A stretch of DNA of 64,000 bases from Eledone cirrhosa. Its lineage: Eukaryota. The DNA lies in assembly GCA_964016885.1 (NCBI GenBank), contig OZ024742.1, positions 118,048,001 through 118,112,000 on the forward strand. Direction: 5' to 3'. Made by a program: the position numbers and the translations under genes. The notes beneath the pieces were generated by a model. That model saw only the letters and a list, made by a program, of their open reading frames with translations, made no database searches and was not told the origin of the DNA. This document shows positions 1,039-62,820 of this stretch, piece by piece (the first letter of the stretch is position 1; each line of letters begins with the position of its first letter).

Positions 1039-1235
1039 AAGTGGTTACACAACAGTTAGTTCACCATACCGAGAACAATTGTTTCACCTTAGCGGATCGT
1101 CAGCTGAGGATCCGCTAAGGCGAAACAATTGTTCTCGGTATGGTGAACTGACTGTTGTGTAACCACTTCTACCTAACTCGTCCCATGGACTGAGTGCTCT
1201 ACCACTACGGATATTACCTTCCAGTGTTCTACCAC
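1039..1235. mobile_element. Miniature foldback derivative of Penelope-like family B (pLTR only, with hammerhead motif)
   Basis: 1039-1103 is the reverse complement of 1104-1169, centred on CAG|CTG. The right arm plus tail match ~8943-9076. Flanked by (TA)n. Confidence 0.9.
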
Positions 1236-1339
1236 TATATATATAGTAATAATAATAATGTTTAAGGGTGAAAGTACTGATTCATTGCTTAAACTTTAAT
1301 CTGTTATTTTAATATGGCGACAAAGAAAGATATATATAT

Positions 1340-1597
1340 ATGTAAATGCCAAACTAACTATTTTCAATTCGGTATTTATAACAGACCGCAAGTAAGGTGG
1401 TTGGATAACATCCATAATCTTGGTTGGTTTCGCTTACGGATCCAGCAAGATCAATTAGAGACAGTTGCTTCTGACATAACCTGCTGGAAGGCGGAAAATG
1501 AGGGCTCTATCCAATGAGCTTCCCAGGAATAAGTGGCCGCCAGAGAAGAAGAAGAAGAAGAAGAAGAAGAAGAAGAAGAAGAAGAAGAAGAAGAAGG
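1340..1597 (+). mobile_element. Expander/Rex3-like RTE LINE 3' fragment with (GAA)n tail, internally deleted
   Basis: Peptide VRWLDNIHNLGWFRLRIQQDQLETVASD; homologous to 2290-2820 on the other strand; ends in (GAA)n. Confidence 0.75.
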
Positions 1598-1964
1598 TAT
1601 ATATATATATATATATATACACCTGTGCTTGGCTGACTAAGATTACCTTTTTGTTAGAAGTACCTGGAGGCTGTCAGTTGATTAAGGTGTAGTAGATGTT
1701 TTCCGGGTCGTAGAATTACCGCGTCGGTTTCCCCGAAGCTGTGTTTCATCTACAACATCGTGTAGTAATGTACAACATAACTCTATTGATACTTGAATTA
1801 TATCGATATCAAACTGAATGTGTTACATAAGTAACATCTAATCAGTCTGATCAATCGACAAGATTCCAGACCTCGTTCGATTGCCAAGTGGGGAGGGTCT
1901 CGTCAAATCCGACCAAGGAAACAATGTTTCCATAGGTCTTTCCATTGCTGATACTATCTACCGG

Positions 1965-2105
1965 TCGCAACTCCTGGCAAAAAGAGCAACGTGAAATAGA
2001 GTGTCTTGCCTAAGGACACAAAGCACCACCCACTACTAGAATTGAACTCGCAATCTCAGGATTGCGAATCCAACTCTCTAACCACTAAGCCTCGCACCTT
2101 CACTA
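1965..2105 (-). mobile_element. tRNA-derived SINE 5' part
   Basis: Minus strand has A box GGCTTAGTGG and B box GAGTTCAATTC, then GTGTCCTTAGGCAAGACAC, a typical metazoan SINE core motif. Confidence 0.75.
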
Positions 2106-2142
2106 CCAGCAGCTGATACCCAACATTATTTATATGGAAGAT

Positions 2143-2265
2143 ATTCTGAGTTCAAATCCCGCCAAGGTTAACTTTGCCTTTCATCTTTACGGGGTCTATA
2201 AAATAAAAGTACCAGTAATGCACTGGGTAATTGCTGGCCTTGTGCCAAAAGTAGAAACAATTATT
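2143..2265 (+). mobile_element. tRNA-derived SINE, 5'-truncated (cephalopod-type)
   Basis: B box GAGTTCAAATCC, then ACTTTGCCTTTCATC...AAGTACCAGT...GCTGGCCTTGTGCC. Similar copies at 43371, 58990(-) and 63760(-). Confidence 0.8.
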
Positions 2266-2289
2266 TATATATGAGATACCACTACTTTT

Positions 2290-58965: not shown

Positions 58966-58989
58966 ATAACAATAACGGCTTCTGGTTTA

Positions 58990-59195
58990 GACACAAGGCC
59001 AGCAACTTTGGGGGAAGGGAAATTCGATTAAATAGACCCTAGTGCGTGACTGGTACTTTATTTTATAGACCCCCCCCCCAACCGTAAGATTGAAATGCAA
59101 AGCTAACCTCAGCAGGATTTGAACGCAAAACGTAAAGCGCCGTAACTATGCTGCAACGCTTGGTGTTCGACGCTCTACCGATACTGCCAATTCAC
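58990..59195 (-). mobile_element. tRNA-derived SINE
   Basis: Minus strand has GGCAGTATCGGTAGAGCGTCG..GTTCAAATCC..GAGGTTAGCTTTGCATTTCA..AAGTACCAGT..GCTGGCCTTGTG. Confidence 0.8.
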
Positions 59196-59747
59196 CGATA
59201 TTGTCATTAATAATATATAGAACTATTTCTCTTTACCTCTATTTCCGTGGCTTCATTAAGATATAGATATATAAAGTACATCTCTTTAACCTTCAAGATT
59301 GAATGTTTATGTCTTTTCCTTGGAATTCTTCTTTTAATACAAGAATAAAACAACTTTTGGATATTCCATTATCATATAAACTCGCCAAAAGAATGTTAAG
59401 AATTCTTCTTGGATGTGTGTAAATGTGTGAAGGAGGAGAAGGAAGGTGGGGAGTCAGTCAGCAAAACGGAAGTAATGCTTTCATCCACATGTAAACGGGT
59501 GCAGAAATAGTATTGGGAAGGAATGCTATAGTTTCTTTATACAAGTCTTTAATCGTATTATTAGCAAGAATTGAATCATTAGGTGCTCGTGGCGTCTTCC
59601 CTCTGTATTCTAAGATATACAGTAGGATCTCTTATACGTAACACAACTTTACACTGCCTGATTTTGTCATTAAGATAGCTACACCCGTGTAGCTTCCAGT
59701 GTGTATCCAATGTTAATAATTTTCCCAGAAAGAACAGCACATATGAT

Positions 59748-60376
59748 TATATATATATATATATATATATATATATATATATATATATATATATATATAT
59801 ATATATATATATATATATATATATATATATATATATATATATAAATATATATATATAAATATATATATATATATAAACATAATCATATGTTCTGGATGTA
59901 TGTATGCATTTAAGTTTGGGGTACGTATGTGTCCATGTATCGATGTATATATATATATATATATATACATATATATATATATATATATATATATATATAT
60001 ATATATATATATATATATATATATATATATATATGTTTATATATATACACACACATATATATATATATATATATATGTGTGTGTATGTATATGTTTATAT
60101 ATATATATACATATATATATATATATATATATATATATATATATATATATATATACATGTATATATATATATGTATATATATATATATATATATATATAT
60201 ATATATATATATATATATATATATATATATATATATATACATATATATATATATATATATACACACATATATATATATATATATATATATATATATATAT
60301 GTTTCTGTATCAGGGAAGAGCGGACGTAAAATGATGATGATGAATGAATGAATATATATATATATATATATATATA
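59748..60376. repeat. (TA)n-dominated microsatellite
   Basis: Read directly. Confidence 0.97.
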
Positions 60377-60388
60377 CGACAAATATGG

Positions 60389-60725
60389 ATTCAAGCACTC
60401 GACGTTATGTTACTTCTTCAAAGCAAGAATGACGGACTATGATTAGAATGAGGAAAATGCGAAACTGTGATACCTATTTCAATGACAATCATGGTACTTG
60501 ATTAATTAACCATTCTTGTGATATCAACAGACAATGACATTGAGTAAAAGGTTACGTTTCCAAGAATGGTTAAATAATCAAGTGACCATGATCGTCCTTG
60601 AAATATGTATCACGGCTTAATTAATAAACAACTCTTTAGCATCTACAGCTTCGGCTTATTCTCATTCTAATTATACTCCGTCATTTTTGCTTTGAAGAAG
60701 TTACATGACGTCGAGTACTTGAATC
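60389..60725. mobile_element. ~340-bp imperfect palindrome (MITE-like or old foldback)
   Basis: 60389-60452 pairs with 60661-60725; ~60465-60518 pairs with ~60561-60615. Confidence 0.65.
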
Positions 60726-62630
60726 GAATTGCAGAATTCCAGCTATGCCTACCGTATGTATTTAGCTCCGCCTGTTGAGCGCTTTTTGATACAATCCGAT
60801 AAATTTGATGAAGTGAGGCATCGGCTAACTACTACACCCGGAAACTCCCTCTACTGCTTGGACCAAGTTTACTTATTGGATTTCCCTAACAGTTGACGGA
60901 AATGTAATTATAAACCAACTTTTGACCGCATTAATAAGAGAACAAAAAGCAACGATAACCTCTTACTTTCCCGCAACACCTTTTATTTCTCATTAAAACC
61001 TGGAAACGTAGTCCCCTGCTAAGTACAATCCTGCCTCATCTAACCAAGAACGACCGGAGAACTCTATCTGCACCCGGTATGAACTGAACTGACCAAAACA
61101 CCCAAAGCACTGTGAATATAACTGGACTCTATATTTCGTCACTTCTACCTTATTCGCAATCAAACATTTGTCACATATGTTTTCCTTTATTTTTTCTTTA
61201 TAACTCCTTTTTCTTCTTTATACTTTTTCTTACATTTTCCTACTTGATTGACTGGGATATCAACTATATGATTATTTAATTATTACGTTCTACAATTTAA
61301 ATTCACCTGCTATTTTTCATGATGCCAGTTTTTTTCTAGTCTGGCTTCATAGCAAATCAATAGGCTATCTATCCCATGGATACTTCATATAAAATTCAAT
61401 TGTTAATCACTATCAACATTTAGTATCCAATTCTAAACTCAATTTCTATCACTATGATAGAATTTATATATATGTGTGTATGTGTGCCTTTGCGCGCGTG
61501 TGTGTGTATGAATATTTAAGAATGCATCCGTTTTCAAGACGAGGAGTTATCTTACTTTTATTTTTTAGTTAGGATTAGCTTCAGGCTCTATCCACCCACT
61601 CCTAAGACCATAACATATAGATGCTTTAACAACGCATAATTTCTGAGTTTTAGTATGTGTGTATTTTACCTTACTGTTACTTTACCATGTGTTTATGCTA
61701 ACACACACATATTTGACTTTGAAAATTTTTTACTAAATGTTTCGTATCACGTGTATATTCTACCATGTGAATATTAAAACATAATTGTATCTTATCATGT
61801 AACTATTTAAACATATGGGAATATAATAAACTTGGCACATAGATTACTGAATCACGCTACATATTTTACGGTATTTAGTTAGGTATCTTACTGTTTTTAT
61901 TCCAATTGTTGCCGACTTCGACATTGAATTCTATATTTAGAAATCGTTTAAAGTCATTACAGTTATATATGTGATTCGGTGATATATTGATTCGGTCGAC
62001 TCTGTTTAATCAGCTGTATATAGTACTTAATGATTATTTTGCCTCGGAGTATGTTTACAGGAGCTCTTACGAAGTGAACATAACAGTTTATTCATATATT
62101 GTTATATAGTATCATTATCTTGAATATATTGAAGTATAAAAAATGTACTTTCATGTGATCAGATATTTTACAAATAGTACACTGGTTTTATTTGTTTTTT
62201 GAATAATTTGAAATATATATATGGATGGATGCTTATCTTCCAGTGAAAGATTAGTGAGAGAGAGAAAGACAGAGAGAGAAAGAGAGAGAATGATGGATAG
62301 ATTGATGGATTTCTTCCAGACAAGAAGGAGTGAGAGAGAGAATGATAGAGAGGAATTGAAAAAGAAAAAAATCTAGAGGAAAAATGGCGATTAGTGGTGT
62401 GGAGAGGGGAGACTGGTATGTCGAGGCAACTGCTTGTCTTCAACAAAAGGACCTTTCTAGGCACAAACCCGTGGTCATTTGTAATCATAGGAGCATCTCA
62501 ATATTTTATTACACACACACACACACACACACACACACACACACACACACACACACACACACACACACACACACACACACACACACACACACGTGTGTAT
62601 ATATATATATATATATATATATATAATATA

Positions 62631-62820
62631 TATATAGAAATGGCTTCTACAAGAATAGAACTGTTTCATTCGAAGGAAATCATCACGGCTTTCCTGATGA
62701 TTTCCTTCGAATGAAATAGTTCTAGTCCTGTAGAAGCCATTTCTATATTAAATATCTATACACTGCTATGTATTGAGTACTTTACTTACTGTGGTTACCC
62801 CCGATTGAACCCGGGATACA
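62631..62820. mobile_element. Miniature hammerhead foldback element, family F copy 2
   Basis: 62631-62685 mirrors ~62695-62748; same tail as the 18.3-kb copy (..GATTGAACCCGGGATA); TA/CA repeat flanks. Confidence 0.88.
62687..62738 (+). ncRNA. Type I hammerhead ribozyme (family F)
   Basis: Stem I GGCTTTC/GAAGCC; CTGATGA; T-TTC-CTTC-GAA-T; GAA; ATAG/CTGT; GUA site after 62732. Confidence 0.8.

What the first reader, a model, noticed from the sequence alone, without database searches (positions are those of the whole stretch)
1039..62820. ~200-bp hairpin mini-elements made only of a hammerhead, its antisense copy and a short tail
Seen: three insertions from two unrelated families (B: 1039-1235; F: 18293-18497 and 62631-62820) have the form (TA)n - antisense hammerhead arm - sense hammerhead - ~65-70-nt tail - microsatellite. 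The fold point lies at or within ~15 nt 5' of the CUGANGA core each time. The two F copies have different loop junctions, so they look like independent events. The B mini is the 3' end of a GIY-YIG-coding Penelope-like element. Known: PLE pLTRs carry minimal hammerheads and inverted pLTRs occur. Inference: either RT repeatedly stops at the folded ribozyme, or these are a class of non-autonomous ribozyme foldback retroelements. A transcript would pair the ribozyme with its own antisense arm, which could block cleavage and yield dsRNA.
Basis: partly seen in the sequence, partly recalled or inferred. Interest (0 to 1): 0.82.

Follow-up and report, generated by a model that had tools for sequence, protein, structure and literature searches.

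The report
Hammerhead-edged Penelope retroelement stubs
These three 200-base hairpins are real and have the layout of tiny head-to-head insertions of Penelope-like jumping genes, a known kind; the added point is that most copies of one family appear to begin at the outer edge of the element's hammerhead RNA motif, likely because the copied RNA starts there.

Summary
The three hairpins exist (1039-1237, 18297-18495, 62633-62818). Each is two head-to-head 3' stubs; one arm stops at an inner end, the other runs about 66 nt further (the tail). Family B's parent lies in the window: a GIY-YIG Penelope-like element with the protein motifs of the Hydra clade. The window also holds larger insertions of the same layout; 3 of 8 are minis. 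The layout is published.

A rough fit puts about 88% of arms starting within roughly 10 nt of the core's first base, not at the cut site, with the two ends used about equally. The B mini lacks the 5' strand of helix I, so it holds no complete ribozyme. In metagenome contigs, 52 similar sites had 50 different junctions, which argues for fresh assembly at each insertion and against a self-copying mini. Why arms stop there (RNA start or polymerase stall) is untested. This scan's notes report the same pattern in other genomes, sharks among them.

The parts
1039..1103 (-). B mini, short arm: hammerhead core (CUGACGA), helices II and III, 3' strand of helix I, ending at inner end A in a TA repeat
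   Evidence: 97% to 8943-9012
1102..1105 (.). B mini junction: palindrome AGCT, 2-nt overlap shared by both arms, no spacer
1104..1171 (+). B mini, long arm up to end A; core at 1104, predicted cut site after 1133; 5' strand of helix I absent
1172..1237 (+). B tail (66 nt) between inner end A and outer end B, followed by TA repeat
   Evidence: ends at 9012 and about 9074-9078 also seen as loose ends in three other runs
18297..18367 (-). F1 short arm with a complete minimal hammerhead (core 18351, predicted cut at 18314), 16 nt upstream of the core kept
18369..18495 (+). F1 long arm (core 18375, 6 nt upstream kept, first helix I pair lost) plus tail of about 65 nt
62633..62685 (-). F2 short arm, ends one base inside the core
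62687..62818 (+). F2 long arm with complete minimal hammerhead (core 62694, predicted cut after 62732) plus tail of about 69 nt
7855..9078 (.). Larger head-to-head insertion of family B: left arm (minus strand) with GIY-YIG ORF piece, hammerhead at 7922 and end A; right arm 8752-9078 with complete hammerhead (core 8945, cut after 8974) and tail
10893..11746 (.). Third family B insertion: broken ORF piece on the minus strand (linker CxCX5C, GIY-YIG, CxxC, CxH) head-to-head with a sense arm 11623-11746 ending at end A
4668..7801 (.). kb-size head-to-head insertion of another Penelope-like family (C), one-sided tail, TA flanks
13977..18083 (.). kb-size head-to-head insertion of another Penelope-like family (D) with RT and GIY-YIG pieces

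Best explanation
The minis are the shortest head-to-head insertions of Penelope-like retroelements (B with Hydra-clade protein motifs, F by inferred kinship), likely built anew at each site when the element's enzyme nicks both strands of a TA repeat and copies two short stretches of RNA that likely run off the RNA's 5' end at the hammerhead's outer edge.

Steps. (1) Shown: two arms per insertion, one ending at inner end A and one at outer end B 66 nt further on; TA or CA flanks. (2) From the literature, inferred here: the RT-endonuclease nicks and extends both strands and starts copying at two adjacent internal RNA sites, which makes the tail. (3) Shown roughly for family B: most arms begin near the first base of the core and contain the cut site, so the templates were uncleaved. 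(4) Inferred: copying that starts inside the 5' terminal repeat of a transcript, or on a short transcript, runs off an RNA end near helix I. (5) Inferred: the two cDNA ends are joined through a few shared bases (AGCT in B). The products are dead ends as a rule; the hairpin is a by-product of integration.
For: Architecture. Same layout at 0.2 to 4 kb in the window, 3 minis among 8 head-to-head insertions. Parent motifs.

Depth over the B reference in run X1 (9,371 contigs laid): 112-130k at 8894-8923, 529k at 8956, 879k at 8968, 1,038k over 8970-9002, 509-597k over the tail. Fits (12 data points, assumed 5% error): mean start 8942-8946 (core starts at 8945), spread 9-13 nt, 88-90% short arms, 48-51% ending at A, best share starting at the cut site 0. 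Random-truncation models fit far worse (chi2 48-168 against 10-15). Run X6 shows the same step (12, 134, 435, 154, 95) from 24 contigs.

In 3 of 3 minis both arms stop within 18 nt of each other, though they start about 65 nt apart.

Junction variety: 67 of 110 pattern hits in metagenome contigs were true palindromes, 52 distinct sites, 14 families, 50 junction strings.

Frangieh 2024 (PMC11167929): both strands cut and extended, two internal RT starts equal to the tail, cleavage not needed, 5' truncation of the RNA shortens the product.
Against: The RNA 5' end was not mapped. In Drosophila Penelope the transcription start lies about 120 nt upstream of helix I (46 nt plus a 75-nt intron, PMC2377424; intron end at helix I, PMC4209133), so a start at helix I is not the known case.

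Depth is summed contig depth, not copy number, and exaggerates high-copy stretches. It shows arm starts, not that the arms are paired as hairpins: no strand-change joint near 8945 was listed for X1 (15 of 48 joints shown; perfect palindromes break contigs). A fixed-arm-length model fitted almost as well (chi2 17-35). A related family sharing only the hammerhead and tail would add to the step (51 X1 contigs have loose ends before 8957, agreement 0.6). Run X4 shows only a twofold rise (45 to 91; 57 contigs). Family F was not tested genome-wide.

In the metagenome set the spacer lengths did not differ from uniform within the 0-30 nt searched (KS p 0.45), and 2 pairs of sites with apparently different flanks share an identical junction.
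Confidence: 0.6

Rival explanations
1. Same insertion route, but the reverse transcriptase stalls at the hammerhead's 5' edge on a long RNA, for example at helix I formed between two RNAs in a dimeric hammerhead, which would also hold the two templates and the two cDNA ends together.
For: Helix III of B is a palindrome, as in dimer-type hammerheads (PMC4209133). The Anolis protein is predicted to be a dimer (PMC11167929). In one 35-site metagenome family both arms keep the 5-nt helix I strand in 24 of 35 sites against 47% expected (p 0.007).
Against: A ribozyme folded within one RNA would be met first at its 3' side, and arms run through helices I, III and II without a visible stop. B arms often stop before copying helix I. 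The 24-of-35 count is crude (4 of 5 letters, related copies counted separately).
Confidence: 0.2
2. The minis, or short hammerhead-plus-tail stubs, are themselves transcribed and re-inserted in trans as a non-autonomous family; the hammerhead edge is the smallest cis-element the enzyme accepts.
For: Short arms dominate family B. The shortest active RNA in vitro begins inside the hammerhead (PMC11167929). Two junctions recur at different sites (L004/L077, L039/L079), and by eye a few more look alike.
Against: F1 and F2 junctions differ. 50 junction strings at 52 sites. The four F arms share no diagnostic change that groups left with left. Shared short overlaps can give the same junction twice.
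Confidence: 0.1
3. Arm length is set by a processivity limit of about 70 nt from each start, or by later trimming of the centres of long palindromes, and the match with the hammerhead is incidental.
For: The fixed-length model fits the depth nearly as well. Long perfect palindromes tend to lose their centres (general knowledge, recalled).
Against: The tail-bearing arms are about 130 nt and the others about 55-70 nt in all three minis, stopping at the same place. Palindromes of 1.4-1.6 kb persist at 98-99% identity in the window.
Confidence: 0.07
4. Ribozyme self-cleavage makes the RNA end at which the fold forms.
For: The fit cannot exclude 20-30% of arms starting at the cut site.
Against: All six arms contain the core upstream of the cut site. 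A model with all arms starting at the cut site fails (chi2 above 600 against 7-10). Cleavage is dispensable in vitro (PMC11167929).
Confidence: 0.03

Closest known systems
Insertion units of endonuclease-bearing Penelope-like elements: inverted 5'-truncated copy plus one-sided tail (Craig et al. 2021, PMC8557442; Arkhipova et al. 2013, PMC3846280)
   Same: Head-to-head arms, tail on one side, palindrome or short overlap at the inverted junction, strong 5' truncation, microsatellite targets that hide target-site duplications.
   Different: The tail is 65-69 nt against the usual 30-40. Both arms are cut down to the hammerhead. The passages read give no count of where arms start.
Hydra clade of Penelope-like elements (Craig et al. 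2021)
   Same: C-terminal GIY-YIG, CxCX5C linker, CxxC and CxH beside the conserved E and N, (TA)n targets, hammerhead near the 3' end. The cores and cut-site letters resemble those in their File S2, and F's helix III stem is the same as in several listed members.
   Different: No full-length copy is in the window, no tree was built with their sequences, and F has no coding parent here.
Dual minimal hammerheads on opposite strands in Schistosoma (Cervera and de la Pena 2014, PMC4209133)
   Same: Pairs of minimal hammerheads close together on opposite strands, read as truncated Penelope-like elements; weak, dimer-type ribozymes.
   Different: There 100-700 bp apart; here the cores are 0-23 nt apart and some are incomplete.
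Two internal RT start sites of the Anolis Poseidon element (Frangieh et al. 2024, PMC11167929)
   Same: Two ends flanking a tail, both strands extended, AT-rich targets, uncleaved RNA as template.
   Different: A different clade, shown in vitro; the head-to-head join and the 5' end of the copies were not studied in the text read.
Animal non-LTR retrozymes (PMC7229834, seen as listing only; bioRxiv 10.64898/2026.07.22.740005)
   Same: Small non-coding type I hammerhead elements derived from Penelope-like terminal repeats.
   Different: Retrozymes are head-to-tail tandems with complete ribozymes; these are single head-to-head pairs, and B has no complete ribozyme.

Membership tests
Endonuclease-bearing Penelope-like element insertion | Sequence continuous with an RT/GIY-YIG ORF (family B) | tested here: met
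   97.7% to 8943-9074; ORF pieces match PLE-type proteins by tblastn; other genomes' reads join the ORF end to 8751
Endonuclease-bearing Penelope-like element insertion | Sequence continuous with an RT/GIY-YIG ORF (family F) | tested here: inconclusive
   No longer F copy in the window; three 21-nt hits in bacterial genomes do not extend
Endonuclease-bearing Penelope-like element insertion | Inverted 5'-truncated copy joined head to head | tested here: met
Endonuclease-bearing Penelope-like element insertion | Tail at one end only | tested here: met
   65-69 nt in 3 of 3 minis
Endonuclease-bearing Penelope-like element insertion | Type I hammerhead in the terminal repeat | tested here: met
   Complete at 8945, 7922, 18351 and 62694; incomplete in the B mini
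Endonuclease-bearing Penelope-like element insertion | Target-site duplication | tested here: inconclusive
   Only simple-repeat matches in the three minis; direct repeats of 10 nt or more at 6 of 52 metagenome sites against 1 of 300 controls
Hydra clade | CxCX5C linker before a C-terminal GIY-YIG | tested here: met
   Families B (with an in-frame stop inside), C and D
Hydra clade | CxxC and CxH beside the conserved E and N | tested here: met
   Families B and D; not found in the frame tested for C
Hydra clade | RWK and DKT motifs in the N-terminal RT | not testable with these tools
   That part is missing from the window; homologues P0001 and P0004 of the family D RT carry RW(R/K) and DKT
Hydra clade | Insertion into (TA)n | tested here: met
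   (TA loose ends behind 9012 in X1, X4, X15); F has TA on the left and CA on the right
Hydra clade | Placement in the RT tree | not tested
   Reference sequences of the clade were not held
Non-LTR retrozyme | Head-to-tail tandem units, each with a complete hammerhead | tested here: not met
   Single head-to-head pairs
Non-LTR retrozyme | Circular or self-cleaved RNA in cells | not testable with these tools
   No RNA data were laid
Self-propagating non-autonomous mini-element (SINE- or MITE-like) | Many copies with one fixed internal junction | tested here: not met
   F1 differs from F2; 50 strings at 52 sites in other families. Not tallied genome-wide for B or F

The most novel reading that the evidence does not exclude
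The hammerhead of Penelope-like elements acts in integration as a structure and not as a cutter: two RNAs pair through the palindromic helix III into a dimeric hammerhead, a protein dimer copies both from the two start sites, and both copies halt at the shared helix I, which places their ends side by side for the head-to-head join. This would explain the inverted repeats, the tail and the conservation of a weak ribozyme with one mechanism.
Probability: 0.12. Interest if true: 0.75.

Novelty: new member of a known kind. Interest (0 to 1): 0.36.

Why it matters
The function of the hammerhead in Penelope-like elements and the origin of their inverted repeats are stated as open in Craig 2021 (section read). 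A sharp pile-up of copy starts at the ribozyme's 5' edge, with the two reverse-transcription starts used about equally, is a genomic footprint that narrows the mechanism and can be tested with the existing in vitro system. I did not find this pile-up in print in 7 searches, but the library lacks most subscription papers, and this scan's notes already record it in other genomes. The minis themselves are ordinary debris; they can be mistaken for MITEs or microRNA hairpins in annotation.

Tried and rejected
No whole genome is held, so the fold-point tally rests on one read-laying run for family B only.

No RNA holder listed; this says nothing on expression.

Rfam gave only microsatellite-driven hits and a sub-threshold IRES and microRNA hit over F1. 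Pfam found no family in 6 of 6 ORF pieces. My first hammerhead scan missed the motifs because it demanded a pair directly after the core (corrected).

A B-specific 22-mer had 0 hits in metagenome contigs. The generic pattern gave 1 chance hit in viral contigs. An F 21-mer gave 3 non-extending bacterial hits. The metagenome loci could not be searched further and held no ORF match within 300 nt, so their Penelope identity rests on motif and layout. 43 of 110 hits were dropped as non-palindromic and 15 as repeat samplings of the same site.

Run X15 is a restriction-site library anchored near 8890 and was not used for depth.

An apparent shared start at 8761 in both arms of the long B copy proved to be a small deletion in the left arm (loose ends at 8751). 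An unconstrained first fit was poorly bounded (mean 8954, spread 18), and searches used 9074 instead of 9078 as the tail end (corrected).

The bacterial promoter scan is irrelevant to an animal element. I first took the parents for Nematis elements (recalled); the motif test pointed to Hydra. A splice acceptor at the B junction was considered: no exon sequence is at the junction and F has no AG there.
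Full report
OBSERVATION. The window is repeat-rich animal DNA (39% GC, long TA and CA runs, many LINE pieces). Named hits of one RT piece include cephalopod, sea cucumber and anemone proteins; the host was not established. The three hairpins are present as described. 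B spans 1039-1237: a 65-nt antisense arm, the centre AGCT exactly at the first base of the core, a sense arm and a 66-nt tail. F1 (18297-18495) keeps 16 and 6 nt upstream of the core on its two arms. F2 (62633-62818) keeps 7 nt on one arm and stops one base inside the core on the other. A hammerhead descriptor finds 7 canonical motifs in the window against 0.3 per shuffle. The B mini is not among them, because the 5' strand of helix I was not copied. F1's left arm and F2's sense arm are complete.

WHAT THEY BELONG TO. The B mini matches 8943-9074 at 97.7%. That stretch is the right arm of a larger head-to-head insertion (7855-9078) whose left arm carries a GIY-YIG ORF piece. A third B insertion at 10893-11746 gives the longest ORF piece. 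It shows the CxCX5C linker, GIY-YIG-like motif, CxxC and CxH that Craig et al. 2021 list for the Hydra clade. Their supplementary table lists (TA)n targets and hammerheads of the same build, and one member with an inverted truncated copy at its 5' end. F has no coding parent in the window. Its layout is the same and its helix III stem equals that of several listed Hydra members, so kinship is inferred. The window holds 8 head-to-head insertions of this kind (1-495, 1039, 4668-7801, 7855-9078, 10893-11746, 13977-18083, 18297, 62633); 3 are minis. The minis are therefore the short end of a size range.

WHAT IS PUBLISHED. The inverted 5'-truncated copy and the one-sided tail are described as typical (PMC8557442: passages, sections 11 and 15, part 2 of 59 of the supplement). 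Palindromes at the inverted junction and a self-priming idea are in PMC3846280 (passages). Dual minimal hammerheads on opposite strands 100-700 bp apart, weak dimer-type activity, and an intron ending at helix I are in PMC4209133 (parts 1-2 of 4). PMC11167929 (parts 1-2 of 4) shows that both strands are cut and extended, that copying starts at two internal sites that bound the tail, and that ribozyme cleavage is not needed. PMC2377424 (passages) places the Drosophila intron 46 nt after the start site. The retrozyme preprint (part 1 of 5 and passages; supplements closed) treats tandem forms only in what I read. PMC13282606 (passages) has nothing on hairpins or ribozymes.

IS THERE A HOT SPOT? 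No genome was held, so I laid four runs on 8112-9076. In X1, which holds 86% of the mini's sampled words and may be the window's own source, summed depth is 20-147k over the upstream 825 nt, 125k at 8923, 529k at 8956, 879k at 8968, 1,038k over 8970-9002 and 509-597k over the tail. Loose ends mark 9012 and 9074. A model of 31-mer coverage fitted to 12 values gives a mean arm start of 8942-8946 (core 8945, cut site 8974), a spread of 9-13 nt, 88-90% short arms and 48-51% of arms ending at 9012. The best share starting at the cut site is zero; 20-30% is not excluded. Random truncation fits much worse, while a fixed arm length of about 70 nt fits nearly as well. The three minis argue for place over length, since their 130-nt and 55-70-nt arms stop together. 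Limits: this depth is not copy number and inflates high-copy stretches; it shows arm starts, not pairing; a sister family sharing only the 3' end would add to the step; X6 repeats the step from 24 contigs, X4 shows only a twofold rise from 57; F was not tested.

ARE THE MINIS COPIED WHOLE? A generic pattern for two cores head to head within 30 nt gave 110 loci in the 40 of 64 parts of the metagenome collection scanned. 67 were true palindromes with arms of 30 nt or more. They reduce to 52 sites in 14 families with 50 different junction strings. Two pairs share a junction with apparently different flanks. Of the 52 sites, 18 can form helix I on both arms, 18 on one and 16 on none. Spacer lengths were not distinguishable from uniform within the searched range, so this set does not test the hot spot; in the largest family both arms keep helix I more often than expected (24 of 35, p 0.007). 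The architecture is thus widespread, and the junction is mostly made anew.

MECHANISM. Most likely, both strands of a TA repeat are nicked and each primes copying, one from the inner and one from the outer start site (inferred from PMC11167929 and the near 1:1 use). The templates are uncleaved, since all six arms contain the cut site and the core (shown). Copying ends near helix I, probably by running off an RNA end there (inferred; unmapped, and not the Drosophila arrangement). The cDNA ends are joined through short overlaps such as AGCT (inferred). A stall at a helix I formed between two RNAs is the main rival and the most interesting one. A simple stall at a ribozyme folded within one RNA would be expected on the 3' side. 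A transcript of a mini is predicted to form a stable hairpin that excludes the ribozyme fold, but the single arms fold poorly as ribozymes too, and transcription is untested.

VERDICT. Real, and a new member of a known kind. The hot spot is a useful and testable addition that I did not find in 7 literature searches. The scan's own unchecked notes describe the same minis and the same pile-up in other genomes; they are leads, not support. Interest 0.36.

Noticed in passing
window 344-384 and 12946-12986 (+): A third repeat family (A) carries a hammerhead with core CAGAAGA (U4 changed to A) in both copies, with helices I, II and III of 5, 3 and 5 pairs and a CUU cut triplet. The variant scan gave 2 hits against 0.13 per shuffle. 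Possibly a natural core variant.
   Followed up: partly
window 13128-13910: Non-coding partial tandem (326 + 131 + 326 nt, copies 99.7% alike) between TA repeats, each copy with a hammerhead with a long helix II (13297, 13754); retrozyme-like and young.
   Followed up: no
window 1-495, 511-636, 1262-1314: Family A head-to-head insertion folding about 170-210 nt upstream of its hammerhead, plus two solo stubs that begin inside the hammerhead; one lies just after the B mini.
   Followed up: partly
window 22655-22692 (+): Lone canonical minimal hammerhead behind a long T-rich stretch, no second copy in the window.
   Followed up: no
window 60388-60725: Old palindrome (67% arm identity) next to a TA run; no hammerhead core recognised.
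   Followed up: no
window 8816-8856: Many listed joints link ORF positions to 8816-8856, suggesting a second, weaker cluster of arm starts about 90-130 nt upstream of the core among long B copies.
   Followed up: no
loose ends before 8957 in X1: The mixed consensus of 51 contigs contains a TCAGT word (initiator-like, recalled) about 9 nt upstream of the core; agreement is only 0.6, so it is a lead for the RNA start and no more.
   Followed up: no
L004, L077, L033, L028; L022, L066, L094: Near-identical asymmetric junctions recur across diverged copies of one metagenome family; either microhomology-driven recurrence or an old mini that was copied whole.
   Followed up: partly
window 63022-63614: Tandem array of a 29-nt unit (about 20 copies) 200 nt after F2.
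   Followed up: no
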